A stretch of 52,843 bases of DNA from a virus (taxonomy: Duplodnaviria > Caudoviricetes): positions 1-52,843 of the IMG/VR virus record IMGVR_UViG_3300050166_000172; one strand, 5' to 3'. The translations under genes and the position numbers were made by a program. The notes beneath the pieces are model-generated. The model saw only the letters and a list, made by a program, of their open reading frames with translations. It was not told where the DNA came from and did not search any database. Of this stretch, positions 1-17,999 are shown in pieces. How positions within the stretch are numbered: position 1 is the stretch's first letter; the number at the start of each line of letters is the position of its first letter.

Positions 1-1248
1 TTATAAAACTCCCGATTTTTTCATAGCCGTTTCCCTGAACACAAACTTATCTTTTAAAAGTTTCATGTCTTCACTTACTTTTCTGTCTAGTACTTTTGCA
101 TAATGTTGCGTAGTGCGAAGGTTTTTATGTCCCAGCATTTTGCTAACACTCTCTATTGGAACACCATTTGTAAGTGTTACAGTAGTTGCGAAGGTGTGTC
201 TGGCAATGTGAAAGGTTAATTCTTTTTCGATTTCACAAACTGATGCTATTTCTTTTAGATAAGCGTTCATTTTTTGGTTGGACAAAATAGGAAGTAGTTT
301 ATCCTCGTTATTACTTTGTGGATGGTTTTCGTATTTGTCGATTATCATTTGTGTAACTGGAAGGATTGGGATTTTGGAAGCGCTTTCGGTTTTTTGTCTG
401 TGCGTGAATATCCATTTTTCACCGTCAATACCATAGCTTATATGGGACTTTGTTAGGTTTTTGACATCAATATAAGCCAAACCGGTAAAGCAGCTAAAAA
501 GGAAGATATCGCGTACAAGTGATAATCTTTCTGTTTTAAAGTCTTTTTCAATTATAGATTGGATTTCTTCTTCAGTTAGATACACGCGCTCCACTTCTTT
601 GACTTTTGATTTGTAATTAGCAAATGGATTTTTATCTAGCCAGTCATTTGCCAAACAAAGCTTGATGATTTTATTGAAATTTTTAAGGTATTTAACCGCT
701 GTGTTGTTTGCGCAATTTCTTACACTACGAAGCCAAAACTCGTAATCGGTTACAAATGCATGATCAATCTTTGTAATATCGATATCGGAAACGTTGTATT
801 TCCATTGCATGAACTCAATGGTATGTTTCAAAGAAGTAGTGTAACGTTCTAATGTTCCTGGAGCGTATTCTTTTCCAACAAGCTCTTTTATTTTGTTGTT
901 GTGGTCTTGGAATATAGGAACTAGCATTCGCTTTGATTCTGTTAAACCAAACAGTTCATTCTTTAAATTTTCAGAGGTAACACTAATGTCTTTTTTGATG
1001 AGCTTTTTTTCCGCTTGTAAGATTTGATTTTTTAGATAATCAAGATGACCATTGATTGTTCTAGCTTCTTCGTTAGTGCCCTTAACTTTACTACCTTCTG
1101 AAGACCATTTATCTGGATTAATAGATTTGTTGGTGCTAAACTCAAAACGCTTAGCGTTCACTGTAACTCTAGTGTAGATTGGACAAACTCCTAAATTGTT
1201 GACTTTTGCTCTCTTGATGTAAAAGAGAATGGATACTGATGTGTTCAT
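1..1248 (-). CDS. Tyrosine recombinase/integrase (Bacteroidetes Arm-DNA-bind_5 + SAM-like + catalytic domain) of a second integrative element
   Basis: N-terminal arm-binding region (PIYTRVTVN); catalytic motifs FSCFTGLAY, HIARHTFAT, LGH..TTQHY. Confidence 0.93.
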   Translation of the reverse strand: MNTSVSILFYIKRAKVNNLGVCPIYTRVTVNAKRFEFSTNKSINPDKWSSEGSKVKGTNEEARTINGHLDYLKNQILQAEKKLIKKDISVTSENLKNELFGLTESKRMLVPIFQDHNNKIKELVGKEYAPGTLERYTTSLKHTIEFMQWKYNVSDIDITKIDHAFVTDYEFWLRSVRNCANNTAVKYLKNFNKIIKLCLANDWLDKNPFANYKSKVKEVERVYLTEEEIQSIIEKDFKTERLSLVRDIFLFSCFTGLAYIDVKNLTKSHISYGIDGEKWIFTHRQKTESASKIPILPVTQMIIDKYENHPQSNNEDKLLPILSNQKMNAYLKEIASVCEIEKELTFHIARHTFATTVTLTNGVPIESVSKMLGHKNLRTTQHYAKVLDRKVSEDMKLLKDKFVFRETAMKKSGVL

Positions 1249-1331
1249 TATTGGTGACCTTAAAGTTAGTATTAAATTTATACGATTTAATAACTACACA
1301 CAAGATGTACATTTTTTGAATATGTTATTGA

Positions 1332-1408
1332 ACACCTTGCCGTAGCGGTGCTTTCGTTGCGAGGAGTCACTTAAAATAATTTTTTTAGTGACACCTTGAA
1401 AGACACCT
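1332..1408. repeat. Short direct repeats (G)ACACCT, possible integrase arm-type sites
   Basis: GACACCT at 1390-1396 and 1402-1408, ACACCT at 1332-1337, between att-like site and integrase start. Confidence 0.4.
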
Positions 1409-1452
1409 AAACTTTGAGATTTAATGAATAATTTGGAATAACCTTAAAAGAA

Positions 1453-1486
1453 AAAACCCACTAAATTGTTGAATTTAGTGGGTTTT
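1453..1486 (-). terminator. Rho-independent terminator downstream of tRNA fragment
   Basis: Perfect 15-bp stem AAAACCCACTAAATT / AATTTAGTGGGTTTT with 4-nt loop; U-rich tail on minus strand. Confidence 0.75.
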
Positions 1487-1506
1487 AGTACCGTTTGCCT
1501 TTCGGC

Positions 1507-1523
1507 TGGCGGAGAAAGAGGGA
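1507..1523 (-). repeat. att core: 3' end fragment of tRNA-Ser
   Basis: Reverse complement reads TCCCTCTTTCTCCGCCA, a typical Bacteroidetes tRNA-Ser 3' end; the upstream T-loop (GGTTCGAA) is missing, so it is a fragment. Confidence 0.7.
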
Positions 1524-1598
1524 AACTCTTTTAACTTCTTTTATTTTTATAATTTATTGATTTTTAACGTATTACAAACAAATTAAAATAGGTTAATA

Positions 1599-1886
1599 TT
1601 ACTTTTTGTTCACTTTTTTGTTCATCATAAAATCCTTTATATGCGTGTCTAAATCATTTCGGAATACCTGAGTATCATAGCCAAATATAAAATTAGGGTT
1701 AACTATAAACTTTTGACAAATTGTATCAATTTGTTCAACCGTAAAATGACATTTACCTGATTGTATTTTAGATAATGTACCCTCTTGCATTTCTATAATT
1801 TGAGCAAAATTTTTAGCAGTTGTAATTTTATTTTGAAATTTCAACAACTCAATTAAACGTAATATGGATTTGTCAGTTATTTGCAT
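1599..1886 (-). CDS. XRE-family HTH protein
   Basis: FAQIIEMQEGTLSKIQSGK...VNPNFIFG HTH pattern; in cI operon. Confidence 0.75.
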   Translation of the reverse strand: MQITDKSILRLIELLKFQNKITTAKNFAQIIEMQEGTLSKIQSGKCHFTVEQIDTICQKFIVNPNFIFGYDTQVFRNDLDTHIKDFMMNKKVNKK

Positions 1887-2376
1887 TTTCCATACAAATT
1901 AATGATTCTCTTACTTTTTTAAAATTTTTATCTTTTATGTCAAAATCAAAATCACCTTGTTTAGTAGTTAATCTCATTTTTAAAATTGAATTGTTTTTAA
2001 AAAAATCTTTAATGCTATTATCAAGTTTTATAGAAAAAGCTAAAAAATGAATATTTGTCTTTAATGAAGAATTATAAAAAGAACTACAAACCATATATTT
2101 TGTAATTTTTATTTCATTAGAAACTCCATTATTATCTAATAAAATTATTTTACTTGTATCGTCAACTGAAAAGAAAGGAAATAATTGATAGTAAAACCCA
2201 ATAAATTCTTCTTTTGCTTTTGATTCAAACCAAATTTCACAACCTCTTGATATATCATTTCTTTTTGTCTCAATAATCCTTTCTTTAGTAAAATCATCAA
2301 TTTTATCAACTTTAAATTTACAATTTTGAGCAAATGAAAAATTTGCTACAATTAATAATAAAAAAATCTTTTTCAT
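1873..2376 (-). CDS. Secreted hypothetical protein
   Basis: Sec signal peptide MKKIFLLLIVANFSFA-Q; directly downstream of cI. Confidence 0.7.
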   Translation of the reverse strand: MKKIFLLLIVANFSFAQNCKFKVDKIDDFTKERIIETKRNDISRGCEIWFESKAKEEFIGFYYQLFPFFSVDDTSKIILLDNNGVSNEIKITKYMVCSSFYNSSLKTNIHFLAFSIKLDNSIKDFFKNNSILKMRLTTKQGDFDFDIKDKNFKKVRESLICMENANN

Positions 2377-2377
2377 A

Positions 2378-2956
2378 CTACATTGTTGTTTTAGTGATTA
2401 CTCCTTTAATTATAAATACTTTTTTAATTTGCTCTAAATGATATTCTTTGGATTCGTAAAAATCATTTTCGCTTTCTAAAATTATATGTTCTTTGTCAGA
2501 TCCTTTTTTTATGTATTTTAATAAAACCTGCTCATCTTTTAATATTACTACATAAGCATAGCCAAAGTTCATGTACTGAAGCTCTACTTCTTTTATACCT
2601 ATAATTTCACCAGAGCAAAATTTTGGATACATACTGTCGCCATAAACATTAATAAAATCAATTCCTTTATCCCAATTAGGTAGGTTTATTGGCAATCTTT
2701 TTAACTCGTCATTTTGCATTTCTTTATCCATTCCTGCTGCTGCTGATACGTTGGGGTAATAATATCCTGTAGGTAATTCTATTTTTTCAACATGTGAATT
2801 ATTTTCACTTAATAATAAATTAATTAATTTAATTTTTGACTCTGGTATAAACTCCCCCTTCTCATAGTTTATAATTGTTCTTCTATCAACTCCAAGCTTT
2901 TTAGCTAAAGCATCTTGAGTTAATCTTGAGGCTTTTCTTAGTTGTTTTAAGTCCAT
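2378..2956 (-). CDS. CI-like repressor (HTH + S24 peptidase)
   Basis: N-terminal HTH (LTQDALAKKLGVDRRTIINYEKG); AAG cleavage-like site, GDSMYP catalytic Ser, downstream Lys. Confidence 0.92.
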   Translation of the reverse strand: MDLKQLRKASRLTQDALAKKLGVDRRTIINYEKGEFIPESKIKLINLLLSENNSHVEKIELPTGYYYPNVSAAAGMDKEMQNDELKRLPINLPNWDKGIDFINVYGDSMYPKFCSGEIIGIKEVELQYMNFGYAYVVILKDEQVLLKYIKKGSDKEHIILESENDFYESKEYHLEQIKKVFIIKGVITKTTM

Positions 2957-4844: not shown

Positions 4845-6875
4845 ATGAAAAAATTTTTTATTAAGAGTTTATCTCTTACGAATTTTAAAGGAATCAAAAA
4901 TTTACAATTAGATTTTGAAGAAGAAACAGATATTTTCGGAGCAAATGGAACTGGAAAAACAACGTTTGCTGATGCTTTTACTTGGTTGCTTTTTGGAAAA
5001 GATACTTCCGATAGAAAAGATTTTGAAATTAAAACATTAGACGCTAATGGTAAAGTAATTCCAATGATAGACCACGAGGTATATGCTTCGCTATTTGTAG
5101 ATAATGAACCGCTAACCATCAAACGTGTTTTAAAAGAGAAATGGGTTCAAAAACGTGGAGAAGAGGAAAAGGAGTTTTCAGGAAATGTAACAGAGTTATA
5201 TTGGAATGAAGTGCCAATGTCGGTAACAGAATTTACTAAAAAAGTAAATGATGTATTAAACGAACAGGTTTTCAAAATGATAACCTCTCCTACTTACTTT
5301 AATTCAATTAAATGGCAAGACAGAAGAAACCTTTTGATAGATATTTTTGGCGAGTTTTCAAATGAAGATGTGGCCAGAGGAAATTCGGCTTTTGAAAATC
5401 TACTTGCTAAACTAACGCAAGGTAAAACGCTTGAAGAATATAAGTCGCAAATCTTAGCTTCAATCAAAAAAGCAAAAGAAGATTTAAAAAATATTCCAGC
5501 AAGAATTGATGAAGTTTTTAGAGGTAAGCCAGAAGATGTGAATTTTGAAGTTCTTGAAAAAGAATTAGAATCAAAAAATTCAGAATTAAAAAAAGTAGAT
5601 GATTTGATTAATAATACTAATCTATCAATTGAATCACAACTTAAGGAAATCAATGATAAAAAATTAAAAATCAGTAATTTAAAAACTGAAATTTCAATTA
5701 TAGAAGCCAATGCAAAAACAGAAGCTTCAGAACGATTGAAACCTGATACTTCTAAAGTAGATGCTTTGCAAAGAAATTTAACTGCTAAAAAGCAAGAATT
5801 AGCCACTTACGAAAGTTCCCTTAAAACATTATCAGGTAAACTTAACGATTTAGATCAATCAAAAACTTCATTAGAGCAAAAGATTGTAGATGCGAGAAAC
5901 GATTGGAACGTTGAAAATGCAAAACAAATCACTTTCAATGATAATGACTTCCACTGCCCTACTTGTAAAAGAGAATTTGAAAGTGGCAATGTAGATGCTA
6001 AAAAAACAGAATTAACCAATTCGTTTAACCAAAGTAAGCAAAAAAAACTTGCTGAAATTTCTGCAAAAGGAAAATCATTAACTGCAGAAAAAATCAACAC
6101 AGAAAATGAAATAACTGGTATTTCGGAAAGAATTAAAAATGGCAAAATAGTAGTTGATGGATTAAAAACAGAAATTGGAAATATTGAATTTTCAATAAAA
6201 GAAACTGAAAACCCAGCAACAGAAAATTCAGAATTAACACCAGAGTTACTTTACGAATCAATTCTTTCTTTAAATCCAGATTATAAATCAAAAAAATCTG
6301 AATTGGAACAATTAGAAGCAAATCCGGTGCAAGATATTTCAATTGATAATTCAGAATTAATTGAAAAGAAAAGAATATTTCAATCAGAAATTGATGCGAT
6401 TAAAACACAGCTTCAAAACAAAGTTTTAATTGAAGCTGCTGATAAGCGAATTTCTGAATTGAAAGCAGAACAATCTACTTTAACACAACAAATTGCAAAC
6501 GTTGAAAAAGAGCATTTTGTAATTGAAAATTTCATCAAAGCCAAAGTAGATGCTTTAGAGCAAGTGGTTAATTCAAAATTTAAATATGTGAAGTTCAAAA
6601 TGTTTGACGAGCAAATTAATGGAGGGTTAAAAGAAACTTGCGAAGCAACGATAAACGGAGTGCCTTACTCAGATGCAAATACTGCATCTAGAATTAATGC
6701 TGGTTTGGATATTATAAATGTCCTTTCAGAATATTACCAAATGTCTGCACCAATATTTATTGACAATGCAGAAAGCGTTCACAGTTTGATAGAAACAAAT
6801 AGCCAAATAATAAAATTGGTGGTTTCAGAAGAAGCTAAAAAGCTAACAGTATTTTATTCAGAAGCAGTAGCGTAA
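4845..6875 (+). CDS. Rad50/SbcC-like AAA ATPase
   Basis: Walker A GANGTGKT, long coiled coil with CPTC zinc hook, Walker B IFIDNAE. Confidence 0.9.
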   Translation: MKKFFIKSLSLTNFKGIKNLQLDFEEETDIFGANGTGKTTFADAFTWLLFGKDTSDRKDFEIKTLDANGKVIPMIDHEVYASLFVDNEPLTIKRVLKEKWVQKRGEEEKEFSGNVTELYWNEVPMSVTEFTKKVNDVLNEQVFKMITSPTYFNSIKWQDRRNLLIDIFGEFSNEDVARGNSAFENLLAKLTQGKTLEEYKSQILASIKKAKEDLKNIPARIDEVFRGKPEDVNFEVLEKELESKNSELKKVDDLINNTNLSIESQLKEINDKKLKISNLKTEISIIEANAKTEASERLKPDTSKVDALQRNLTAKKQELATYESSLKTLSGKLNDLDQSKTSLEQKIVDARNDWNVENAKQITFNDNDFHCPTCKREFESGNVDAKKTELTNSFNQSKQKKLAEISAKGKSLTAEKINTENEITGISERIKNGKIVVDGLKTEIGNIEFSIKETENPATENSELTPELLYESILSLNPDYKSKKSELEQLEANPVQDISIDNSELIEKKRIFQSEIDAIKTQLQNKVLIEAADKRISELKAEQSTLTQQIANVEKEHFVIENFIKAKVDALEQVVNSKFKYVKFKMFDEQINGGLKETCEATINGVPYSDANTASRINAGLDIINVLSEYYQMSAPIFIDNAESVHSLIETNSQIIKLVVSEEAKKLTVFYSEAVA

Positions 6876-7096: not shown

Positions 7097-7990
7097 ATGA
7101 GTGATCAAAAAAACACCACAGCAGTAGCGGTAGAAACAGTAAAAAAAGACATTTCTACACAAGTATTAGCCAAAATAGATACTTTTCAAAAATCTGGCGA
7201 ACTTACAATTCCAAAAGATTATAATGTAGAAAATGCACTGAAAAGCGCTTACATTATGCTTTCTGACCCAAAGAATAATATTCTTGAAAAATGCAATAAA
7301 TCATCTATTGCAGAAGCATTACTTAAAATGGTAGTATATGGGGTTTCACCTATAAAAAAGCAATGTTATTTTATTCCTTATGCGGACAAATTAGAATGTA
7401 GTATTTCTTATGCTGGAAATATTGCCATTGCTAAACGTTACGGAAAACTAAAAAGCATTAAAGGAAATGCGATTTTTGAAGGCGATACTTTTGAATTTGA
7501 AGTGGATAACGTTACAGGAAGAAGAAAAATTGTAAACCACAAACAAACGCTTGAAAGTGTAGGTTGTAATAAGTTAAAAGGTGCATATGCGGTTTACGAA
7601 CTTACTGATGGAACAAGTGATGTAGAAGTTATGAGTATCAATCAAATTCAGTCGGCTTGGAATCAAGGAGGCTCAAAAGGTAATTCTCCAGCGCATAAAA
7701 ATTTTGCTGACCAAATGGGTATTAAAACCGTAATCAATAGAGCTTGTAAGTTATTGATTAGTTCTTCCGATGATTCTGTTTTATATGATCCATTAGAAGA
7801 AGAAAAATTAATTGATGTTACCAATGAAAATGTGCAGCACGAAATTAAAGAAAATGCGAATAAAGAAGTATTAAACTTTGAAAACATTGATGAAGCAGAA
7901 GTAATTGATTCGGAAGTTTTAATTCCAAATGCTTCACCAGAAATGGCTTTTGAAAACGTTGAAGAAATTCAAACTGATGCTGGATTTTAA
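7097..7990 (+). CDS. recT: RecT-family ssDNA annealing recombinase
   Basis: KQCYFIPY, GAYA, H..F.DQM..KTVINRACK motifs; acidic tail. Confidence 0.88.
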   Translation: MSDQKNTTAVAVETVKKDISTQVLAKIDTFQKSGELTIPKDYNVENALKSAYIMLSDPKNNILEKCNKSSIAEALLKMVVYGVSPIKKQCYFIPYADKLECSISYAGNIAIAKRYGKLKSIKGNAIFEGDTFEFEVDNVTGRRKIVNHKQTLESVGCNKLKGAYAVYELTDGTSDVEVMSINQIQSAWNQGGSKGNSPAHKNFADQMGIKTVINRACKLLISSSDDSVLYDPLEEEKLIDVTNENVQHEIKENANKEVLNFENIDEAEVIDSEVLIPNASPEMAFENVEEIQTDAGF

Positions 7991-8092
7991 AAATGGAAAC
8001 ATTTTTTTTAACTATTGAAAAACACAGAGACACTGCTATTTGTTTAGCGGTGTTTATTGTGATTTGTTTATCAATAATAAAATCTGGAAAAG

Positions 8093-8833
8093 ATGAAACT
8101 TAAAATCATTGGAACAGGCTCAAAAGGTAATGCCTACATTCTCGGAAACGAGAATGAGGCACTTTTGATTGAAGCAGGAGTTAACATCAAAGAAATTAAG
8201 CAAGGCTTAGATTTTGAGTATTCAAAAGTAGTTGGCTGCATTGTTAGCCACGAGCACCAAGACCATTGCAAATCAGCTAATGAAGTAATGAGATTAGGAA
8301 TTGATGTTTACACTAGTTCCAAAACACACCAATCAATAAACGGAGATGTAATTCATAGATCATTACCAATTGCATCGAAAGAAATAATTCAATTGGGTGG
8401 TTTTAAAATTATGGCCTTTGATGTAAAACACGATGCAGCTGAGCCGCTTGGTTATTTAATTGAACATGAAGAATGTGGTAAGGTTTTATTTTTAACTGAC
8501 ACGTTTTATTGCAAGTACACCTTTCCTGGTTTAAATAACATAATTATTGAAGCCAACTATTCAAAAGAAATTATTGATAAAAAATACGGACCTGATAGTG
8601 ATAAAGAATTTTTGAGAAACAGAATTTTACAGTCTCACTTTTCTCTTGAAAACTGCATTGATATGCTAAAAGCAAATGATTTATCTGCAGTAAATAACAT
8701 TGTACTAATTCACTTATCAGATAGCAATTCAAATGAAAAGCAATTCAAAGAAGAAGTATTTAATGCAACTCAAAAAAATATAACCGTAGCTAATAACGGA
8801 ATGATTATAGAATTTAACAAAACACCTTTTTAA
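8093..8833 (+). CDS. Metallo-beta-lactamase-fold hydrolase (probable nuclease)
   Basis: GTGSKGN, SHEHQDH, HD, IEANY, HLS motifs. Confidence 0.9.
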   Translation: MKLKIIGTGSKGNAYILGNENEALLIEAGVNIKEIKQGLDFEYSKVVGCIVSHEHQDHCKSANEVMRLGIDVYTSSKTHQSINGDVIHRSLPIASKEIIQLGGFKIMAFDVKHDAAEPLGYLIEHEECGKVLFLTDTFYCKYTFPGLNNIIIEANYSKEIIDKKYGPDSDKEFLRNRILQSHFSLENCIDMLKANDLSAVNNIVLIHLSDSNSNEKQFKEEVFNATQKNITVANNGMIIEFNKTPF

Positions 8834-8834
8834 T

Positions 8835-9047
8835 ATGGCAATATTTCAACAAGAACAATCGGTAAAACAGTTTAATGATGAAGAAGATTTTTTCGTTAAA
8901 CAAGAGGTTAGTATTGATACAGATGGTAGTGAAATATGGATTGTTATCGAACATAACAATAATGATTTAAGTATGAGTTTAGATAACTGGTATCAATTAA
9001 AAGTACTAGTAGAATCAATGTTAAAAAATAATAATATTAAATTTTAA
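8835..9047 (+). CDS. Hypothetical protein
   Basis: Acidic ORF in operon. Confidence 0.55.
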   Translation: MAIFQQEQSVKQFNDEEDFFVKQEVSIDTDGSEIWIVIEHNNNDLSMSLDNWYQLKVLVESMLKNNNIKF

Positions 9048-9051
9048 ATAA

Positions 9052-9528
9052 ATGGAAACATTAGAAATTAGTAAGGCAAACGCCTTGAAAGCACACAAAG
9101 ATGCAAATACTAAAGGTAAATCACTTTTAGAAAACTTATTTGGAAAAAAATTTTTCTTAAAAGACATAAAAGACAGAATAAGCTGTTTTGATGATGTTTT
9201 AAAAGAAAATGGTACTACAAGAGAAGAATTTGAAAAATCATGTAAAGATTTAGATCCTGACGAAATTGCTTATAAAATGGCAAAATTAGTATGCCTTGTT
9301 TATAATGAAGGTTGGATTCCAGACTGGAATAATAGTAATGAATACAAATATTACCCGTGGTTTGAAATGGGTTCCTCTTCGGGCGTCGGTTTTTCGTACT
9401 ACGGCTGCGATTACTGGCTTTCGGATTCGAGTGTCGGCTCGCGCCTTTGCTTTAAATCTTCTGATTTAGCAAAACACGCTGGTAAACTTTTTGAACAAGA
9501 AATTTATAAACCATTATTCACAATTTAA
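9052..9528 (+). CDS. DGR target protein 1
   Basis: Contains VR1; WIPDW..KYYPWF...VGSRLCF; paralog of next gene. Confidence 0.9.
   Translation: METLEISKANALKAHKDANTKGKSLLENLFGKKFFLKDIKDRISCFDDVLKENGTTREEFEKSCKDLDPDEIAYKMAKLVCLVYNEGWIPDWNNSNEYKYYPWFEMGSSSGVGFSYYGCDYWLSDSSVGSRLCFKSSDLAKHAGKLFEQEIYKPLFTI
9370..9450 (+). repeat. DGR variable repeat VR1
   Basis: 81 bp, 15 mismatches to TR, all at TR adenines. Confidence 0.96.
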
Positions 9529-9540
9529 TATATAAAAATT

Positions 9541-9915
9541 ATGTATACAAAAATTAAAACATTTGAAGATGCTTGTGTTAAAGAAAATCTTGATCCTAAT
9601 ACGGTAATTCCTGATTTTTCATTATTCCCAGAAAAAGATAGACAAGCAATGATTGACCATGCTAAATTGATTATTATAAACAAAGCAATAAATGAAGACT
9701 GGATTCCTGATTGGTTAAATTATAACCAAACTAAATATTACCCGTGGTTTGAAATGGGTTCCTCTTCGGGCGTCGGTTTTTCGTGCGACGACTACGTTGA
9801 CTGGAGTACGAGTTCGAATGTCGGCTCGCGCCTTTGCTTTGAAAGTAGAGAAAAGGCAATTTATGCAGGCAAAACTTTTATAGAGTTGTATAAATCATAC
9901 TTTGTAAAAGAATAA
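9541..9915 (+). CDS. DGR target protein 2
   Basis: Contains VR2; WIPDW..KYYPWF...VGSRLCF. Confidence 0.9.
   Translation: MYTKIKTFEDACVKENLDPNTVIPDFSLFPEKDRQAMIDHAKLIIINKAINEDWIPDWLNYNQTKYYPWFEMGSSSGVGFSCDDYVDWSTSSNVGSRLCFESREKAIYAGKTFIELYKSYFVKE
9757..9837 (+). repeat. DGR variable repeat VR2
   Basis: 81 bp, 12 mismatches to TR, all at TR adenines. Confidence 0.96.
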
Positions 9916-9920
9916 AAAAA

Positions 9921-10110
9921 AAGGTTGTGTGGTGTAGTTGCTGTAGTTCCTCTTCAGGCGTCAGTTTTTCGTACAACGACTACGATAACTGGAATACGAA
10001 TTCGAATGTCAGCTCGCACCTTAGCAAAAAAATAAACACCACAGACCTTGCTTACATAGCAAAAAATAACAATTTTAAAAGGTTCGTTAGTAAATAATTG
10101 AAAACGAACC
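9921..10110 (+). ncRNA. Putative structured DGR template RNA (TR plus pairing flanks)
   Basis: 9921-9935 pairs with 10036-10049 around TR; hairpins at 10048-10062 and 10081-10110. Confidence 0.6.
9945..10025 (+). repeat. DGR template repeat (TR)
   Basis: Intergenic, AAC/AAT-rich copy with 21 adenines, just upstream of RT. Confidence 0.96.
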
Positions 10111-10125
10111 ATTAAAGCAAAGGCA

Positions 10126-11088
10126 ATGAAAAGAATAGGAAATTTATATCAAAAAATAATATCGAAAGAAAATCTTTTAGCTTCAGAACTAAAAGCAAGA
10201 AAAGGTAAGTCATTTCAATATGGTGTTCGTGTTTTTGATAAAAACAAATTGGAACTTATTGATCAACTTTATAATGAATTGAAAAGTAAAAATTTTAAAA
10301 CTTCTCAATACACAACTTTTACTGTTTTTGAACCTAAAGAAAGATTAGTTTTTAGACTTCCATACTTTCCAGACAGAATATTACATCATGCAATTATGAA
10401 TATTATGGAGCCTTTATTTACAAAATGGTTTACAAATGATACCTATAGCTCAATTAAAGGAAAAGGCATTCATAATGCAGCCAATAACTTAAAAAAAGCA
10501 TTAAAAGACAAATTAAATACAAAGTATTGTTTAAAGCTAGACATTGTAAAGTTTTATCCAAACATAAATCACAATGTTTTAAAGCAACAACTTCGAAAAA
10601 AAATCAAGGACCAGGATTTACTTTGGTTATTAGATGAAATTATTGAGAGTGCTGAAGGATTACCAATTGGCAACTATTTAAGTCAATATTTTGCTAACTT
10701 TTATTTAACCAGTTTTGACCACTGGATAAAAGAAGAAAAGCAAATTAAATATTACTTCAGATATGCTGATGATATTGTAATTCTATCACAATCAAAAGAG
10801 CATTTACACCAAGTTTTATCAGATATTAAACTGTATTTAAATGATAATTTAAAACTTCAAATTAAAAATAATTATCAAATATTTCCAGTTAAAGCTCGGG
10901 GAATTGATTTTGTTGGATATGTTTTTTACCATACACACACATTGCTACGAAAATCAATTAAAAAAAGATTTGCAAAAGCAATATCAAAAAAGAAAAATAA
11001 CCAAACAATAGCGGCTTACAATGGTTGGACAAAACATTGTAACGCAAAACACTTACTTAAAAAATTATTACCTAATGAACAATTTTAA
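10126..11088 (+). CDS. DGR reverse transcriptase
   Basis: LKLDIVKFYPNI, GLPIGNYLSQ (DGR-type IGxxxSQ), YFRYADD, GIDFVGY; 320 aa, no maturase/endonuclease domain. Confidence 0.95.
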   Translation: MKRIGNLYQKIISKENLLASELKARKGKSFQYGVRVFDKNKLELIDQLYNELKSKNFKTSQYTTFTVFEPKERLVFRLPYFPDRILHHAIMNIMEPLFTKWFTNDTYSSIKGKGIHNAANNLKKALKDKLNTKYCLKLDIVKFYPNINHNVLKQQLRKKIKDQDLLWLLDEIIESAEGLPIGNYLSQYFANFYLTSFDHWIKEEKQIKYYFRYADDIVILSQSKEHLHQVLSDIKLYLNDNLKLQIKNNYQIFPVKARGIDFVGYVFYHTHTLLRKSIKKRFAKAISKKKNNQTIAAYNGWTKHCNAKHLLKKLLPNEQF

Positions 11089-11371
11089 AGATTTTGATAT
11101 TAAGCCAGTGATAACAAATTTTGTTGGTGAAAAAATTACTACTCAAAAAATACTTGATAAAGAAATTATTGTAATTGACTTCAAAATTTTGCCATCAAAA
11201 TTTGACGGAAAAGGAGATAGATTAGACTTGCAAATTGAGTATAGAGATGAACCAAGAGTTATTTTTACAGGTGGTAAATACCTAATACAAACAATAGAAA
11301 AAGTACCAAAAGATAAGTTTCCATTTAAAACAAAAATAACTAAAAATGGAGAGCATTTGGAATTTACTTAA
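11075..11371 (+). CDS. Small RT-coupled protein, candidate DGR accessory factor
   Basis: ATG at 11075 overlaps RT 3' end by 14 nt; beta-strand-like pattern, FPFKTKI motif. Confidence 0.7.
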   Translation: MNNFKDFDIKPVITNFVGEKITTQKILDKEIIVIDFKILPSKFDGKGDRLDLQIEYRDEPRVIFTGGKYLIQTIEKVPKDKFPFKTKITKNGEHLEFT

Positions 11372-11383
11372 TTTTTTAAAATC

Positions 11384-11824
11384 ATGATTTATAATCCTCA
11401 AAAAGAAATCGACATCAAACGTGCAATTGAAAAACTCAAATACTATATCCAAAAAGGAAGGCCGTTTGAACTGAAACAAATGCAAGTAAAAAAATCAATT
11501 AATCAAAATAGTTACTTCCACGCAATTGTAAGTTGGTTTTCTTTTGAATATGGGGAACCAGCAGATTACGTAAAGCAAGAAATTATTAAAAAAATTGTTT
11601 GCCCAGAAATTTTTAAAACGGAATCGGTAAATAAAATAACCGGTGAAGTTAGAGCCGACTGGAAAAGCTTTGCTGTAATTACAAAAGATGAAACCACATA
11701 TGTAATTAACAAGTTTAGAGATTACTCCAGCAAACAAGCAGGTATCTACTTACCTACTCCAGAAGAAAAAGATTTCTTAAAAGAAATTGAAGTGCAACTA
11801 AAAAATAATCAACAATACTTATGA
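11384..11824 (+). CDS. NinB/Orf-like recombination accessory protein
   Basis: KSINQNSYFH motif resembling NinB family RSxxQN; GIYLP near C-terminus. Confidence 0.55.
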   Translation: MIYNPQKEIDIKRAIEKLKYYIQKGRPFELKQMQVKKSINQNSYFHAIVSWFSFEYGEPADYVKQEIIKKIVCPEIFKTESVNKITGEVRADWKSFAVITKDETTYVINKFRDYSSKQAGIYLPTPEEKDFLKEIEVQLKNNQQYL

Positions 11825-12102
11825 GAAAAGAAACACTAAATGCTAAATTTTATAACCACAAGGAAAATAAAATTGCAAACCAAGAACATTTTGAGAAAAA
11901 CAAAAAAGAGTTCTCAAAACAATGCCAAATCGTTTATGATGCGCTTATGCGTGGCGAACGATTAACAACTACAAAAGCTTTAATTCAATACGGAGTTGGC
12001 GACTTAAGAAGAAGAGTAAAAGACCTTAAAGACATTTGGAACATCCCAGTAAAAGACCAGTATGTACAAGGCAAATTTAAAGAGTATTTTTTAATCAATT
12101 AA
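11821..12102 (+). CDS. Small winged-HTH protein
   Basis: L..GERLT...A..YG..L.RR..DL pattern. Confidence 0.55.
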   Translation: MRKETLNAKFYNHKENKIANQEHFEKNKKEFSKQCQIVYDALMRGERLTTTKALIQYGVGDLRRRVKDLKDIWNIPVKDQYVQGKFKEYFLIN

Positions 12103-12110
12103 TTATTATT

Positions 12111-12713
12111 ATGACAAAGAAAGTTTTTACTATCGACACTGAAAAGTTAGATAAAATGACAAAAAAAGTAGAGGAAATATCTAACAAAGAGTTAGAAATT
12201 AAAAGCGCTAATATTAGCGATGCACTTTGTAATTACTCGTATGAGTTATTAAAAGGAAAAACAAAAGGCGATACGCTTCAAAGAAAAGGAGCTCATATCG
12301 TTCACGATGATTTGCAAATAAAATTTGATAATCTAAATGTGTTTTTAGCGCATCTTGATGACGCATACACAGGTAACAAAAACACAACTCCTCTTTCAGA
12401 ATTAGAAGATGAAATTGAAGTTGAAAAATACCATGTTACTGGTTTTAGTATTTCTGGAGTTGAAGAAAATAGATCAGTTATTCTTTCAGGATGGAAAGAA
12501 GTAACAGAAGGGATAGTTAAATACCCAGCTCCTAAAATAAAATATTCAGGCTCATATCTATACTTGAGCGAATTGAAAGAAAGGGTACAAGAAGCAATTG
12601 AAGAGGTGGAACAATACATGAATGGTAAAACAGCTCCACAAGATGATCCTAATCAAGTTGTAATGTCTTTTAGCGAAGAAGATGCCGCTTTTGAACAAGG
12701 AAAAGTAAATTAA
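12111..12713 (+). CDS. Hypothetical phage protein
   Basis: 200-aa ORF in operon. Confidence 0.7.
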   Translation: MTKKVFTIDTEKLDKMTKKVEEISNKELEIKSANISDALCNYSYELLKGKTKGDTLQRKGAHIVHDDLQIKFDNLNVFLAHLDDAYTGNKNTTPLSELEDEIEVEKYHVTGFSISGVEENRSVILSGWKEVTEGIVKYPAPKIKYSGSYLYLSELKERVQEAIEEVEQYMNGKTAPQDDPNQVVMSFSEEDAAFEQGKVN

Positions 12714-12715
12714 TC

Positions 12716-13876
12716 ATGGCTTTTCAACTTCGACCATACCAATCGGAATCAATTAATTTAAGTGTTGATTTTTTAAAAGGTAATTCAAACCAAAAAAGTG
12801 GTTTAGTTATTCTTCCTACAGGTTCTGGTAAGTCAGTTGTAATTGCTAAAATTTTGGAACCATTGGAGGGCAAAACTATTGTCCTCCAACCTTCCAAAGA
12901 AATTTTAGAACAGAACTTTGAAAAATTTTCTAATTACGGAAAAGCCTCAATATATAGCGCATCAGCTGGAGAAAAAAGAATTGATAAAGTTACTTTTTGT
13001 ACCATCGGAAGCATCATTAATAAAAAGCATTTATTTAAGGGATTACAAAATATTCTTATAGATGAATGCCATTTAGTTAATTCAGATGCTGGAATGTACC
13101 AGGACTTTATAAAATCTTTTCCTGAAGCAAAAGTGCTTGGATTAACGGCCACTCCTTATCGATTAGAACAAACTTCTGAAGGACCACAACTTACTTTTTT
13201 AACCAGAAGCATACCGAGAATTTTTGACAACGTTTTATACTACGTTCAAAACGATTTATTATTTAATTCTGGTTTTTTAGCTGAATTAGAGTATTACAAT
13301 TTTGATGTAATTGATCGTTCGAAATTAGAAGTAAATAGTTCGGGAACAGACTTTACACAAAATTCATTAAGAAGATATTACAAATCAATTGATATGCCTA
13401 CAAGAATAGCAAAAACAGCCTATTCTGTTTTAAATAAAAGAAGTAATATTTTGATTTTCTGTGCTTTAATTGAAGAAGCAATTTCTGTTCAAAGAAAAAT
13501 ACCAGGATCTGCAGTTTTAACTGGAGAAACAAAGAAAATTGAACGTGAGAAAATTTTAAGCCAATTTAAAAACGGAAAAATCAAATGTTTAATAAATGTT
13601 GGTGTATTGACTACTGGATTTGATTATCCAGCGTTAGAAGCAGTTTTAATGGCTCGTTCTACAATGTCATTATCACTTTACTATCAAATTGTAGGTCGTG
13701 TGATGCGAATTTTTACGTATGCCGACGGAACTAAGAAAAAAGGATGGTTTGTAGATATGGGAGGAAATATAAACTTCTTTGGAAAAATTGAAACTATGAA
13801 AATAATTGAAAATGAAAATGGTTTTTCAATATGGAATAATGGCCGACAATTGACAAACGTGCCTTTTAAAAAGTAA
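12716..13876 (+). CDS. SF2 DExH helicase (RadD/YejH-like)
   Basis: LRPYQ, PTGSGKS, DECH, TAT, TGFD, QIVGRVMR motifs. Confidence 0.93.
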   Translation: MAFQLRPYQSESINLSVDFLKGNSNQKSGLVILPTGSGKSVVIAKILEPLEGKTIVLQPSKEILEQNFEKFSNYGKASIYSASAGEKRIDKVTFCTIGSIINKKHLFKGLQNILIDECHLVNSDAGMYQDFIKSFPEAKVLGLTATPYRLEQTSEGPQLTFLTRSIPRIFDNVLYYVQNDLLFNSGFLAELEYYNFDVIDRSKLEVNSSGTDFTQNSLRRYYKSIDMPTRIAKTAYSVLNKRSNILIFCALIEEAISVQRKIPGSAVLTGETKKIEREKILSQFKNGKIKCLINVGVLTTGFDYPALEAVLMARSTMSLSLYYQIVGRVMRIFTYADGTKKKGWFVDMGGNINFFGKIETMKIIENENGFSIWNNGRQLTNVPFKK

Positions 13877-16685: not shown

Positions 16686-17999
16686 ATGAAACCGAGAAAT
16701 AAACTTCATCATCGCGTTGTTGATTTAGCAGAAAGTTTATTTGTTATATCAAAACAAGAAAAAGAATGGGCATATCAAAACTGTTTAGAACACAGGGCAT
16801 ATCAAACTAAAACCAGAGTATTATGTTTAGACTGTGGTGATACATTTTCACCTGAATTAGTGAAAAGAAAAAAAGCAGTTTGTCCACATTGTAATACTAA
16901 AGTTGATGTAAAATTATCACTTTGTACAACTGACCGCCAAGTAAACTATTTTGCAATTACTGATATAGTTCAAGAATTTCAAGTAGTTAGAAACTTTGAA
17001 TTAATTGCTTACTACAAAAAAGGAAAACCAGCTAATTATCATCTTCACGAAATTTTGCAGTATTGGATTCAACCAGATTTAAAAGTTACCATGTTTGGAT
17101 TACAACATACAGTAACTGGATATTTTGATTCATGGGGTGGTAATATGGAAATTAGAGAAGAAAATTTAACAAGTTGGTATGGTAAAAAATATGATGTTTA
17201 TGCAAGAAAATATCATCCAAATTCAGTTATAAAATCTGAATATAAAAAATATGGTATAAATTCTAATCTTCAAGAAATTACTTTTTTAGAAGCTATTAAA
17301 CATATTCCGAATCAACCAAAACTCGAAACACTTTTAAAAGCAAAACAATATTTTTTAATAAATGCCCACGTTAACCATAGAGGAAGAAGTGTAAGTTATT
17401 ATTGGGATAGTATTAAAATATGTTTGCGAAATAAGTACAAATTAAAGGACGCTTCAATATGGATGGATTATATTGATCTATTGCGATATTTCAATAAAGA
17501 TTTCCGAAACGCAAAATATGTTTGCCCTAAGAATTTAAATAAAGAGCATGACAGATTAGTTGAAAAAAAGAAAATAATTCAGAAAAAAAGAGAACTTGAA
17601 GATCAAATAAAAAGAGCCAAAATTGATAATGAATTCTTTTTAAAAGAAAAATCAAAATTCTTTGATTTACAATTTACAAACGGACCACTTGTAATTATAC
17701 CATTAAAATCAGTTGAAGAATTTATTGAGGAAGGCGAAAAACTTAAACATTGTGTATTTGCAAACAGATACTTTGCTTAAGAAAATTCATTAGTTCTATC
17801 GGCTCGTATAAACGATAAACCCATTGAAACTATAGAAATTAATTTAAATAAGTTAAAAATAATTCAATCAAGAGGATTGCAAAACCAACCAACAGAACAC
17901 CACGAAGAAATACTTAAAATTTTAAATCAAAATATGCACAAAATTCGAGCAATTATTAATCCAAAAACAAGTAAAACCCATAAAAAATTAGCATCATGA
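16686..17999 (+). pseudogene. PcfJ-like protein interrupted by in-frame TAA at 17778-17780
   Basis: CxxC pairs, W.DY..LL, EG..L.HCV; frame continues ENSLVLSARINDKPIETIE..QSRG..N to TGA 17997-17999. Confidence 0.82.

What the first reader, a model, noticed from the sequence alone, without database searches (positions are those of the whole stretch)
9052..9915. DGR targets are tiny non-structural early proteins, not tail fibres
Seen: both targets are only 158 and 124 aa, lack signal peptides or TM segments, and are paralogs (WIPDW..KYYPWFEM-VR-CF). They sit in the early operon between RecT/MBL nuclease and NinB-like/helicase genes, about 37 kb from the tail fibre, which has no VR. Known: classic phage DGRs diversify receptor-binding proteins with C-type lectin or Ig folds, and the VR end GSRLC resembles the CLec GFR motif. 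Inference: these are minimal intracellular binders diversified to engage a fast-evolving host target such as a defence protein, or a competing element. They may form a heterodimer with combinatorial diversity. This is the best candidate for an undescribed system here.
Basis: partly seen in the sequence, partly recalled or inferred. Interest (0 to 1): 0.88.

Follow-up and report, generated by a model that had tools for sequence, protein, structure and literature searches.

The report
Phage retroelement diversifying two small early proteins
A Flavobacterium-type prophage carries an active diversity-generating retroelement whose only targets are two small, soluble, paired proteins encoded among its early recombination genes rather than in its tail, a rarely noted arrangement first glimpsed in a human-gut Bacteroides phage.

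Summary
The window is a complete provirus with a real DGR. It has a reverse transcriptase (10126-11088), a template repeat (9945-10025) and two variable repeats in tandem paralogous ORFs of 158 and 124 aa. All 27 TR/VR mismatches lie at template adenines.

The targets are acidic and have no hydrophobic segment. They sit between the RecT/MBL and NinB/helicase genes, and no other VR exists in the provirus.

The cassette is long target, short target, TR, RT, then a 98-aa OB-fold protein in place of Avd. It recurs in 47 of 52 related IMG/VR loci and 12 of 14 Bacteroidota genome loci. Otherwise identical contigs differ only in the two VRs, at adenine sites.

The family is large: 2714 representative clusters. 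It has no Pfam family and no matching solved fold. A heterodimer is supported by a complex model (0.63 against 0.01 for the best control), by the conserved pairing and by natural fusions.

It is not wholly undescribed. The LoVEphage/Quimbyvirus homologue is the distal "non-structural" DGR target reported by Benler et al. 2021. The intracellular counter-defence role remains an inference.

Verdict: a new variant of a known kind, of moderate to high interest.

The parts
9052..9528 (+). Target 1 (T1), 158 aa. The long form of the family, with a ~35-aa N-terminal helical extension.
   Evidence: ORF. phrog_11581 at 2.5e-19. pI 5.5 and no hydrophobic segment. Orthologues of 148-170 aa lie upstream of the short target in related loci.
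9370..9450 (+). VR1, codons 107-133 of T1. The variable codons are residues 116-121 and 123-125, 127. The 3' end is a GC-rich IMH-like stretch (GGCTCGCGCC).
   Evidence: 15 of 15 mismatches to the TR are at TR adenines. Codon view. Contigs of other metagenomes differ from the window here at 6 listed sites, all at TR-adenine positions.
9441..9479 (+). Hairpin with a 4-nt loop directly after VR1. It is a possible target-recognition element like the one described for BPP-1 (recalled).
   Evidence: DNA fold of -8.8 kcal/mol, z -2.25; 5 of 200 shuffles fold as well. The equivalent stretch after VR2 is not better than shuffles (z 0.29), and the stretch after the TR has none.
9541..9915 (+). Target 2 (T2), 124 aa. 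The short form of the family.
   Evidence: ORF. phrog_11581 at 3.9e-26. 2714 representative clusters at E<=1e-3. AF2 model pLDDT 86.9.
9757..9837 (+). VR2, codons 73-99 of T2. The variable codons are residues 82-87 and 89-91, 93.
   Evidence: 12 of 12 mismatches to the TR are at TR adenines. 4 listed between-sample differences, all at TR-adenine positions.
9945..10025 (+). Template repeat (TR). It is non-coding here and has 21 adenines, including five AAY codons in the VR reading frame.
   Evidence: It matches only VR1 and VR2 in the window.
10126..11088 (+). DGR reverse transcriptase, 320 aa.
   Evidence: RVT_1 at 2.7e-20. phrog_1423 at 3.6e-123. IGNYLSQ and YADD are read in the translation; the motif definition is recalled. 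55-93% identical RTs follow the target pair in related loci.
11075..11371 (+). 98-aa basic accessory protein with an OB-like fold (phrog_19665). It overlaps the RT stop by 14 nt and is the presumed replacement for Avd.
7097..8833 (+). Upstream context: RecT (7097-7990) and an MBL-fold hydrolase (8093-8833).
   Evidence: RecT at 4.4e-36 and Lactamase_B_2 at 3.2e-8.
11384..13876 (+). Downstream context: NinB/Orf (11384-11824), a winged-HTH protein (11821-12102), a 200-aa protein (12111-12713) and a helicase (12716-13876).
   Evidence: phrog_72 at 7.4e-13. HTH_39. phrog_16 at 6.9e-79.
1..2956 (-). Lysogeny module: integrase (1-1248) and CI-like repressor (2378-2956), read divergently from the rightward operon that holds the cassette.
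   Evidence: phrog_1 at 9.3e-41; phrog_4 at 6.4e-19 and phrog_6201 at 1.3e-9.

Best explanation
The window is a complete temperate phage (provirus), most likely of a Flavobacterium. It carries a self-contained, active diversity-generating retroelement.

Mechanism. The RT copies the TR RNA and misreads adenines. The mutagenised cDNA then replaces the VR in each of two adjacent genes. The RT is probably helped by the small basic OB-fold protein encoded right behind it, in place of Avd.

The targets. They are a long (158 aa) and a short (124 aa) paralogue of a large phage-specific family (phrog_11581) with a mostly helical scaffold. About ten codons in a loop between the conserved SGxGFS and VGSRLCF motifs are randomised. 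That gives about 8e8 variants per protein by hand count.

Proposed function. I propose that the two proteins form a pseudo-symmetric heterodimer. I propose that they are made in the cytoplasm with the early recombination and replication genes, are not virion parts, and act as a diversified binding module in phage-host or phage-phage conflict. The most likely role is neutralising a variable host defence component, so that rare variants in a phage population succeed on a resistant host.

Shown here: the DGR, its activity in relatives, the gene position, the cassette conservation and the family size.

Supported only by a model, the conserved pairing and the fusions: the heterodimer.

Inferred: cytoplasmic action, early expression and the counter-defence role.
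For: The DGR is real.
- 27 of 27 TR/VR mismatches are at TR adenines.
- The RT is assigned by Pfam and PHROG.

The DGR class is active on both targets.
- L035 and L039 were compared with L041 over 1161 nt covering both targets and the TR. They differ at 24 and 20 sites.
- All of those sites lie inside the two VRs. 23 of 24 and 19 of 20 are at TR-adenine positions, and there are 0 differences elsewhere.
- Contigs of two other metagenomes laid on the window differ in VR1/VR2 at 10 listed sites, all aligned with TR adenines (that list was cut, with 31 more differences not shown).

These are the only targets.
- The TR matches nothing else in the 100%-complete provirus.
- In two other complete records (G004, G005) the TR matches only the local VRs.

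The position is non-structural, here and in relatives.
- In the window the cassette lies between RecT/MBL and NinB/helicase.
- L008, L009, L015, L065 and L069 have the same module.
- In L041 it lies between a RecE-like exonuclease and an Ant-like anti-repressor. In L025 it lies next to an integrase.
- In Versailles the homologue follows NinB.
- In LoVEphage it lies among methyltransferases, a PAPS reductase, a radical-SAM protein and a tRNA ligase.

Versailles and LoVEphage have a separate, classic tail-module target.
- The same TR also diversifies the small early-region homologue remotely, with 15 of 16 and 19 of 19 mismatches at TR adenines.
- So the small protein is an extra, non-tail target in those phages.

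The proteins are soluble and acidic, with no hydrophobic segment.

The cassette is conserved.
- The RT follows the targets in 47 of 52 IMG/VR loci.
- 45 of those 47 have at least two target-like stretches. Three are cut by a contig end, two have a split first copy and four have three copies.
- A TR/VR pair was found in 43 of the 47, with 78-100% of mismatches at TR adenines.
- 12 of 14 genome loci, all Bacteroidota by record title, have targets, RT and the accessory protein.

Heterodimer.
- Complex prediction gave a score of 0.63 and a best of 3 controls of 0.01. That mark was reached by 58 of 80 solved complexes and 2 of 110 mismatched pairs.
- These counts hold only roughly, because my own alignments were used.
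- The runs agree in at least 73% of contacts and the partner pLDDT is at least 65.
- 16 of the best 150 family representatives have two matched stretches in one polypeptide, and 8 were inspected as tandem fusions.

Published precedent.
- Benler et al. 2021 read the Quimbyvirus distal target as non-structural and conflict-related.
Against: - No data on transcription timing, virion content or binding partners.
- 'Early' rests on synteny with lambdoid phages only.
- One of the three complex runs scored 0.05. A pass for paralogues may reflect a homodimer habit of the family rather than a T1:T2 pair.
- In the complex model, 5 of the 10 variable residues of each chain are in the interface list: T1 117, 120, 124, 125, 127 and T2 83, 86, 90, 91, 93 (mapped by hand). 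That fits poorly with a fully exposed paratope.
- In Versailles and LoVEphage the small protein shares its VR, and hence its sequence space, with a tail protein. This could equally mean that it binds cell-surface ligands.
- Versailles annotators called the homologue 'tail protein' by HHpred against PHROGs.
- No effector or defence-related domain was found fused to the family. Only 12 longer relatives were found, of 218-360 aa, so there is no direct link to any defence system.
- Some target pairs occur without an RT: L027 in a 100%-complete provirus, L049/L050, and L066. The proteins therefore also work undiversified.
Confidence: 0.5

Rival explanations
1. The two small proteins are virion-associated adsorption factors. 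For example, they could form a heterodimeric adhesin cap or adaptor that docks on a tail fibre, with its genes lying outside the late module. On this view the DGR does classic tropism switching.
For: - In Versailles and LoVEphage one TR serves both a tail-module protein and the small homologue, and the two share a 38-aa VR stretch (71% identity).
- The window's phage has no other diversified receptor-binding candidate.
- The Versailles record calls the homologue 'tail protein'.
- The conserved N-terminal helices could be a docking element (inference).
Against: - Across unrelated phage backbones the genes always sit in recombination, regulation or methyltransferase neighbourhoods, never in a tail module.
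- The only PHROG match is phrog_11581, of unknown function. No tail family matched.
- Similarity to the Versailles tail protein is confined to the TR-dictated VR.
- No long fusions to fibre-like proteins were found, though this is weak evidence.
Confidence: 0.2
2. The pair is a prophage-expressed sensor or exclusion factor that protects the lysogen. A diversified cytoplasmic binder would recognise proteins of superinfecting phages or other mobile elements and block them, alone or with neighbouring nucleases.
For: - All 14 genome-contig carriers are prophage-like loci in Bacteroidota chromosomes.
- The cassette lies near the lysogeny and regulation genes in L025 (integrase) and L041 (Ant).
- DGR-diversified putative sensors are reported for cellular DGRs (10.1101/2023.09.22.558884; search listing and abstract start only).
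Against: - No effector domain lies in or beside the proteins.
- In the window the genes are in the rightward lytic operon, about 6 kb from the CI-like repressor and on the opposite strand from it. That argues against expression in the repressed prophage, though this is an inference.
- No transcription data.
Confidence: 0.15
3. The cassette is a largely selfish or neutral module. A retroelement travels with its own small target genes, and their diversification has no adaptive role for the phage.
For: - The cassette is compact and appears in different phage backbones and neighbourhoods, as a mobile module would.
- Copy number of targets varies from 1 to 4.
Against: - The scaffold is strongly conserved over 2714 clusters, with variation confined to the VR loop.
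- The long+short pairing is conserved.
- Reading frames are kept intact in most loci.
- RT-less copies are retained, which implies that the proteins are useful in themselves.
Confidence: 0.07

Closest known systems
Distal DGR target of Quimbyvirus/LoVEphage (ORF 80/84 in Benler et al. [quoted passage not shown]
   Same: - It is a homologous protein family. tblastn of T2 hits 4 LoVEphage records, covering 98% of the query at 28-32% identity, with a best E of 5e-8. Both belong to the phrog_11581 type.
- The VR is in the same loop, before a GSRL motif.
- The gene neighbourhood is non-structural.
- The ORF after the RT aligns with the window's 98-aa accessory protein.
- The authors already proposed a non-structural, conflict-related role.
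   Different: - There the small protein is a single, remote, second target about 14 kb from the RT, and the primary target is in the tail module.
- That protein is 194 aa, with an insertion before the VR.
- The RT is split over three frames (and the paper).
- In the window the small proteins are the only targets. They are a tandem long+short pair and lie directly upstream of the TR and RT.
Bordetella phage BPP-1 DGR (Mtd / TR / Brt / Avd)
   Same: - Adenine-specific TR-to-VR information flow.
- VR in the C-terminal part of the target.
- AAY-rich TR.
- GC-rich IMH-like end of the VR, and a hairpin after VR1.
- The BPP-1 details are recalled, not tested here.
   Different: - Mtd is a 381-aa trimeric CLec-fold tail-fibre tip encoded in the tail module. 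The targets here are 124-158 aa with about 27 residues after the VR and no matching solved fold, and they sit in the early module.
- No Avd family hit in the provirus. An OB-like protein follows the RT instead.
Bacteroides phage Versailles (ON453897) 193-aa protein WAK79127
   Same: - It is a homologue of T2 (97% of the query covered, 29% identity, E 8e-6).
- It lies in the same SbcC / RecT-like / MBL / NinB module.
- It is a DGR target, with 15 of 16 mismatches at TR adenines.
   Different: - It is a remote target of a DGR whose RT and TR sit beside a 453-aa tail protein with a VR at its extreme C-terminus.
- It is a single copy.
- The ORF after that RT does not align well with the OB-like accessory protein (16% identity).
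BovT/BfiT small variable proteins of Bacteroides DGRs (Macadangdang et al. preprint 10.1101/2024.11.15.621889)
   Same: They are small DGR variable proteins with N-terminal helices, next to prophage genes (passages).
   Different: - They are reported as periplasmic, as structurally like the pilin-tip globular head (4EPS), and as having an Avd-like protein.
- The window's proteins have no export signal that I can see, no fold match and no Avd.
- Homology between the two was not tested, because I had no BovT or BfiT sequence.
Tentaclins and tgt2 proteins of two-target phage DGRs (PMC10743442)
   Same: One TR serves two different target proteins in a phage.
   Different: - Those targets are 234-579 aa, carry DUF6273/CLec domains, are proposed receptor-binding proteins and lie in the cassette next to tail genes.
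- They show no family relation to the window's proteins by Pfam (one search gives no DUF6273 hit).

Membership tests
Diversity-generating retroelement (DGR) | Reverse transcriptase of the DGR type next to a template repeat | tested here: met
   RVT_1 at 2.7e-20. phrog_1423 'Reverse transcriptase' at 3.6e-123. The TR ends 100 nt upstream of the RT start. IGNYLSQ and YADD are read in the translation; the motif definition is recalled.
Diversity-generating retroelement (DGR) | TR/VR pair whose differences are confined to TR adenines | tested here: met
   VR1 15 of 15 and VR2 12 of 12 mismatches are at TR adenines. 0 of 60 non-A positions differ.
Diversity-generating retroelement (DGR) | Ongoing diversification (VR differs between otherwise identical genomes) | tested here: met
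   Shown in relatives. L035 and L039 against L041 have 24 and 20 differences, all in the VRs, 23 and 19 of them at TR-A sites, and 0 elsewhere in 1161 nt. For the window's own lineage, 10 listed VR differences in contigs of two other metagenomes are all at TR-A positions. Contigs only, so within-sample variation was not measurable.
Diversity-generating retroelement (DGR) | Avd accessory protein | tested here: not met
   PF05635 gives 0 matches in the provirus at E<=0.1, while the control rings in B. thetaiotaomicron. None of the flanking ORFs scanned has an Avd-type Pfam hit. Avd is not universal: Wu et al. 2018 report it in 275 of 372 DGRs. A conserved OB-like 98-aa protein takes its place.
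Diversity-generating retroelement (DGR) | IMH-type GC-rich 3' end of the VR that differs from the TR, and a hairpin downstream | tested here: inconclusive
   Both VRs end GGCTCGCGCC where the TR has AGCTCGCACC. There is a hairpin after VR1 (z -2.25) but none better than shuffles after VR2. Function was not tested.
C-type-lectin-fold DGR variable proteins (Mtd, TvpA, TaqVP type) | CLec fold around the VR | tested here: inconclusive
phrog_11581 (phage protein family of unknown function) | Significant match to the family profile | tested here: met
   T1 at 2.5e-19 and T2 at 3.9e-26.
Phage tail / receptor-binding proteins | Encoded in the tail module, or matching a tail family | tested here: not met
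   The genes lie 24 kb upstream of the head gene and 29 kb upstream of the tape-measure gene. There is no tail PHROG hit at E<=0.01. Presence in virions cannot be tested with these tools.
OB-fold single-strand nucleic-acid binders (for the 98-aa accessory protein) | Five-stranded beta barrel with a helix between strands 3 and 4 | tested here: inconclusive

The most novel reading that the evidence does not exclude
Bacteroidota phages carry a two-chain, antibody-like variable binder. It is a heterodimer of two small cytoplasmic proteins with a fold unlike the known CLec and Ig DGR scaffolds. Each chain has a loop rewritten by the same template, giving about 6e17 combinations by hand count. The binder is made early in infection to neutralise fast-evolving host defence proteins. 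It is serviced by a DGR that uses an OB-fold single-strand binder instead of Avd. This would be a hypermutating counter-defence system, and a new minimal scaffold for DGR-based protein evolution.
Probability: 0.22. Interest if true: 0.88.

Novelty: new variant of a known kind. Interest (0 to 1): 0.62.

Why it matters
Phage DGRs are understood almost entirely through tail-fibre tropism switching. This class of cassette invests the whole hypermutation machinery in two small soluble proteins of the early region, and it is widespread. There are 2714 representative clusters, and hosts span Bacteroidota from freshwater Flavobacterium to gut Bacteroides phages.

If the proteins act inside the cell, they extend DGR biology from adsorption to intracellular conflict. 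That would make an open question testable: what do non-structural phage DGR targets bind?

Cultivable relatives exist for that test (LoVEphage, Versailles, BI-TP1, PV4-TP1).

The 124-aa scaffold and the Avd-free RT/OB-protein pair are also attractive minimal parts for engineered DGR-based directed evolution.

Tried and rejected
Domain and sequence searches.
- Pfam found no family for T1, T2, the 98-aa protein, the Versailles or LoVEphage homologues or two fused forms. Only sub-threshold noise appeared, such as RHH_9 at 0.098 and DUF234 at 0.0099.
- A profile search of PDB sequences with A2 gave two weak hits: human PNRC2 (4b6h_C) at E 0.062 and 2k53_A at E 1.5. I take both as chance.
- The Versailles tail protein had no PDB sequence hit at E<=1, so it could not anchor the VR to a solved CLec structure.

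Fold searches for T2.
- Foldseek against the PDB gave nothing at E<=1e-3.
- BFVD gave 6 hits at E<=1e-3, all uncharacterised phage proteins, including crAss-like viruses.
- The ESM Atlas gave only unnamed, mostly viral clusters.

Search for longer relatives.
- The 'longer' search found 12 proteins of 218-360 aa among 55 candidates. They are tandem forms, forms with an unknown ~95-aa N-terminal extension, and one with a transposase-like N-terminus that may be a gene-calling artefact.
- No fusion to tail or effector domains was found. The tool itself calls such absence weak evidence.

Promoter and terminator scan.
- Over 8000-12200 it found 16 promoter-like sites against 21.4 expected, and no + strand terminator inside the cassette.
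- This is uninformative, because Bacteroidota promoters are not covered.

Sequencing runs.
- Only Logan contigs were available.
- In X5 no contig covers the two VR regions, and in X3 and X7 contigs end at the VRs. This is what VR heterogeneity would produce, but uncovered parts prove nothing.
- Contigs of one metatranscriptome library (X17) lie on 9819-9967, 10155-10621 and 11011-11087. DNA carry-over cannot be excluded, so transcription is not shown.

- The search for related loci with alignment A2 failed for lack of a conserved 7-10-column stretch.
- The structure tools give no coordinates, so I could not map the variable residues on a surface.

Literature.
- The searches for a prior description of this family, its pairing or an OB-fold DGR accessory protein were.
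- Papers read in part:
  - PMC8144416 (passages and section 9)
  - PMC5758913 (passages; sections 10, 14 part 1 and 21)
  - PMC8008677 (passages)
  - PMC12629997 (passages)
  - 10.1101/2024.11.15.621889 (passages)
  - PMC10743442 (passages and section 9)
  - PMC8525569 (passages)
  - PMC6199706 (passages)
The target-cluster tables of Roux et al. 2021, Table S1 of Wu et al. 2018 and the HHpred files of Benler et al. 2021 may list or annotate this family without my seeing it.
Full report
WHAT IS THERE

The window is a whole IMG/VR provirus record of 52,843 bp, rated 100% complete, with 29.5% G+C. Its layout is that of a lambdoid temperate phage:
- An integrase (1-1248) and a CI-like repressor (2378-2956) lie on the minus strand.
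- A long rightward operon then follows, beginning with:
  - SbcC-like ATPase (4845-6875)
  - RecT (7097-7990)
  - MBL-fold hydrolase (8093-8833)
  - the two ORFs of the finding
  - a reverse transcriptase
  - a 98-aa ORF
  - NinB/Orf
  - a winged-HTH protein
  - a helicase
- The later part of the operon holds:
  - further replication-type genes
  - a methyltransferase (25923)
  - terminase (28982)
  - major head protein (33591)
  - tape measure protein (38127)
  - virion proteins (41877, 44140)
  - an unassigned 536-aa ORF (46616)
  - holin and endolysin
- A second integrase lies at the right end.

THE DGR

- VR1 (9370-9450, in the 158-aa ORF) and VR2 (9757-9837, in the 124-aa ORF) align without gaps to a TR at 9945-10025.
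- Over this 81-nt core, VR1 differs from the TR at 15 positions and VR2 at 12. All 27 are among the 21 TR adenines, and none of the 60 other positions differs (indexed by hand).
- In the VR frame the TR reads TAC AAC GAC TAC GAT AAC TGG AAT ACG AAT TCG AAT in its centre. That is five AAY codons plus five codons with one adenine.
- By hand, 15^5 x 4^5 gives about 8e8 protein variants per VR.
- Both VRs end in GGCTCGCGCC, where the TR has AGCTCGCACC. This is an IMH-like asymmetry.
- A 4-nt-loop hairpin follows VR1 (z -2.25). VR2 and the TR have no such hairpin.
- The TR matches nothing else in the provirus.
- The RT is a clear DGR-type RT.
- No Avd-family (PF05635) sequence is present in the provirus.

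THE TARGETS

- T1 and T2 are paralogues (41% identity in A2). Both match phrog_11581, a family of unknown function, and no Pfam family.
- They are acidic (pI 5.5 and 4.9) and have no hydrophobic segment.
- phmmer against 1.84 billion representatives finds 2714 clusters at E<=1e-3 and 1122 at E<=1e-10.
- Of the best 150, 61 are 140 aa or shorter, 70 are 141-200 aa and 19 are longer.
- 16 of the 150 have two matched stretches. The eight I read are tandem fusions of a long-type and a short-type domain, each with its own VR-like loop.
- The family consensus is IKTFEDAC..LG..P..A.KL.II.ALNEGW.PDW.N...KYYPWF...SG.GFS-[variable]-VGSRLCFKS.ELA.YAGKQF.
- Column entropy peaks in the stretch that the TR adenines address.
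- AlphaFold2 with 113 sequences gives a confident model: pLDDT 86.9 and pTM 0.81. It has helices at 8-14, 31-51, 103-112 and 114-121, with a long, largely irregular stretch between them. pLDDT drops to 53-73 in the VR.
- No solved structure matches. Foldseek gives nothing at E<=1e-3, and the best VIA-align Z among 48,161 chains is 4.4.
- BFVD returns six uncharacterised phage proteins, including crAss-like ones.

THE CASSETTE IS A CONSERVED UNIT

A scan of IMG/VR with T2 gave 52 loci.
- In 47 of them an RT (55-77% identical) follows the targets. The five without are L027, L033, L049, L050 and L052.
- 45 of the 47 have at least two target-like stretches upstream of the RT. The usual pattern is a 148-170-aa ORF followed by a 123-135-aa ORF. 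Three are cut by the contig start, two have a split first copy and four have three copies.
- A TR/VR pair was found in 43 of the 47, with 78-100% of mismatches at TR adenines.
- A ~98-aa ORF overlapping the RT stop was found by tblastn in 30 of the 52. In the more distant L041 group it matches the same PHROG, phrog_19665, at 4.3e-32.

In the species-representative genomes there are 14 loci, all Bacteroidota by record title. Seven are Flavobacterium, at 69-74% identity. The others are Yeosuana, Crocinitomix, Chryseolinea, Lacibacter, Cyclobacteriaceae, Pedobacter and an unnamed Bacteroidetes MAG. 12 of the 14 have targets, RT and accessory protein.

The neighbourhoods vary, but none is structural:
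- The same SbcC/RecT/MBL...NinB/helicase module is seen in L008, L009, L015, L065 and L069.
- L041 has an HNH nuclease, a RecE-like exonuclease and an Ant-like protein.
- L025 has an integrase and Ant-like regulators.

In two other complete records the TR finds only the local VRs. In a third record, rated 63% complete, only the TR itself was found at the E-value used.

ACTIVITY

- Among nearly identical contigs of the L041 group, L035 and L039 differ from L041 at 24 and 20 positions in 1161 nt. Every one lies in VR1 or VR2, 23 and 19 of them at TR-adenine positions, with no difference elsewhere. L044 is identical to L041.
- More diverged members (L034, L046, L048, L049, L053) have 68-273 differences outside the VRs. 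Their VR differences are again almost all at adenine sites.
- For the window's own lineage I laid Logan contigs of two other metagenomes (X3, X7). They differ in VR1 at 9400, 9404, 9413, 9418, 9421 and 9425, and in VR2 at 9799, 9805, 9806 and 9812. All ten align with TR adenines.
- Only one listed difference (9680) lies between the VRs. That list was cut, with 31 more differences not shown. These contigs also carry a diverged T1 N-terminal part.

THE LINK TO KNOWN PHAGES AND PRIOR ART

tblastn of T2 against 50,697 phage records hits eight, all Bacteroides or Phocaeicola phages: four LoVEphage records, PV4-TP1, BI-TP1, Versailles and BT-TP2.

- In Versailles the 193-aa homologue sits after SbcC / recombination protein / MBL hydrolase / NinB.
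- In LoVEphage the 194-aa homologue sits among methyltransferases, a PAPS reductase, a radical-SAM protein and a tRNA ligase.
- Both phages have an RT elsewhere. Beside it lie a TR and a classic local target. In Versailles that target is a 453-aa 'tail protein' whose VR is at its very C-terminus.
- The small early-region protein is a remote target of the same TR, with 15 of 16 (Versailles) and 19 of 19 (LoVEphage) mismatches at TR adenines.
- The tail protein and the small protein share only the 38-aa VR stretch (hhalign probability 21%).

This is the arrangement that Benler et al. 2021 described for Quimbyvirus. The 2025 Nature paper cites that work together with the LoVEphage paper as the discovery of LoVEphage. 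Benler et al. report:
- an RT in three frames, which I also see;
- one VR in the tail module;

Dahlman-type follow-up (my label for the authors is uncertain; I cite the paper by its id): PMC12629997 reports four prophage species with a second VR distal from the RT, near counter-defence genes.

The LoVEphage paper itself mentions only the tail-collar fibre and the RT.

I found no text describing the family as such, its tandem pairing, cassettes in which it is the sole target, or its accessory protein. Supplements are closed.

HETERODIMER

Complex prediction with family alignments A3 (T1) and A4 (T2) gave the verdict that the model supports binding.
- The score is 0.63 and the best of 3 controls is 0.01.
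- That mark was reached by 58 of 80 solved complexes and 2 of 110 mismatched pairs. These counts hold only roughly here, because my own alignments were used.
- The three runs scored 0.63, 0.05 and 0.63. They agree in at least 73% of contacts, and the partner pLDDT is at least 65.
- The interface is pseudo-symmetric. It involves the long helix (T1 63-78 / T2 24-44), the W-PDW and YPWFEM motifs, the C-terminal half of each VR with the VGSR motif, and the C-terminal tails.
- By my hand mapping, 5 of the 10 variable residues of each chain are in the interface list. The other five (T1 116, 118, 119, 121, 123 and T2 82, 84, 85, 87, 89) are not.
- Together with the conserved long+short pairing and the natural fusions, I put the heterodimer at about 0.6.
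- A homodimer habit shared by paralogues would also pass this test.

THE ACCESSORY PROTEIN

- The 98-aa ORF (11075-11371) is basic (pI 8.8) and conserved behind the RT, and it aligns with the ORF behind the LoVEphage RT.
- It folds with pLDDT 93.8 into three strands, a helix and two strands.
- Foldseek gives no significant hit. Its weak top rows are OB-fold nucleic-acid binders.
- It is unlike the four accessory classes listed by Wu et al. 2018: Avd, HRDC, MSL, and the acidic 160-169-aa CH1.
- I read it as an OB-fold single-strand binder that stands in for Avd. This is an inference.

HOW IT MOST LIKELY WORKS

Shown: an Avd-less DGR rewrites about ten codons in each of two adjacent small genes, and in this class of cassette nothing else.

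Inferred:
- The proteins are made with the early genes.
- They stay in the cytoplasm.
- They pair into a heterodimer.
- They bind a variable partner.

The most economical partner is a host defence or other conflict protein. The reasons are that the genes keep company with recombination, anti-repressor, methyltransferase and tRNA-repair genes, that they are small and acidic like many phage inhibitors (general knowledge), and that a tail target exists separately where tropism switching is needed.

The main rival is a virion adhesin encoded out of place. It is kept alive by the VR shared with a tail protein in Versailles and LoVEphage, and by the lack of any other diversified receptor binder in the window's phage.

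A lysogen-protecting sensor and a selfish module are less likely.

VERDICT

The thing is a new variant of a known kind: a self-contained, Avd-free DGR devoted to a tandem pair of small non-structural proteins of a very large, unstudied phage family. Interest 0.62.

Noticed in passing
window 11075-11371: A 98-aa basic protein (phrog_19665) overlaps the RT stop codon. It has a confident OB-like fold and is conserved behind this RT clade, including in LoVEphage. No Avd is present in the provirus. It is not among the accessory classes (Avd, HRDC, MSL, CH1) in the Wu et al. 2018 text I read.
   Followed up: yes
L027 (G003), L049/L050 (G001/G002), L066: These loci have target pairs of the same family without any detectable RT. 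G003 is rated a 100%-complete provirus and G001 90% complete. The proteins are therefore apparently kept without diversification in some phages.
   Followed up: partly
L017/L018, L030, L042, L072, L075, L077: These cassettes have three target copies in tandem (four in L072) upstream of one TR/RT.
   Followed up: partly
window 1-1248 and 51683-52843 (both - strand): Tyrosine-integrase-like genes (phrog_1, 9.3e-41 and 5.6e-40) lie at both ends of the provirus record. One may belong to a neighbouring element, or the record's borders may be generous.
   Followed up: no
window 16686-17780: This is a PcfJ-like protein (PF14284, 1.6e-24) in the early region. Wu et al. 2018 list a PcfJ-like motif among domains upstream of VRs in some CPR DGR targets. 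There is no VR here.
   Followed up: no
window 25923-27410: A 495-aa protein just upstream of the terminase matches a DNA methyltransferase (phrog_498, 1.6e-95) and has a weak ParB-like nuclease match. It is a possible anti-restriction function.
   Followed up: no
window 9370-9450, 9757-9837: Logan contigs of other metagenomes end at, or fail to cover, the two VRs, while the flanks assemble at 99-100% identity. VR heterogeneity would break assemblies in this way, but contigs cannot prove it.
   Followed up: partly
L059-L061 (LoVEphage OY731433, 69276-70348, - strand): The LoVEphage RT matches in three separate pieces in different frames. This agrees with the programmed-frameshift RT that Benler et al. 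2021 describe for Quimbyvirus.
   Followed up: partly
window 9370-9390 and 9436-9450 against TR 9945-9965 and 10011-10025: Six TR adenines at the two margins are changed to the same base in both VRs (A>G at five, A>T at one). There they encode the family's near-invariant Gly, Arg and Cys residues (TR SSHLS against VR GSRLC). Either these margins are not transferred (IMH/IMH*), or every homing event is followed by strong selection.
   Followed up: partly
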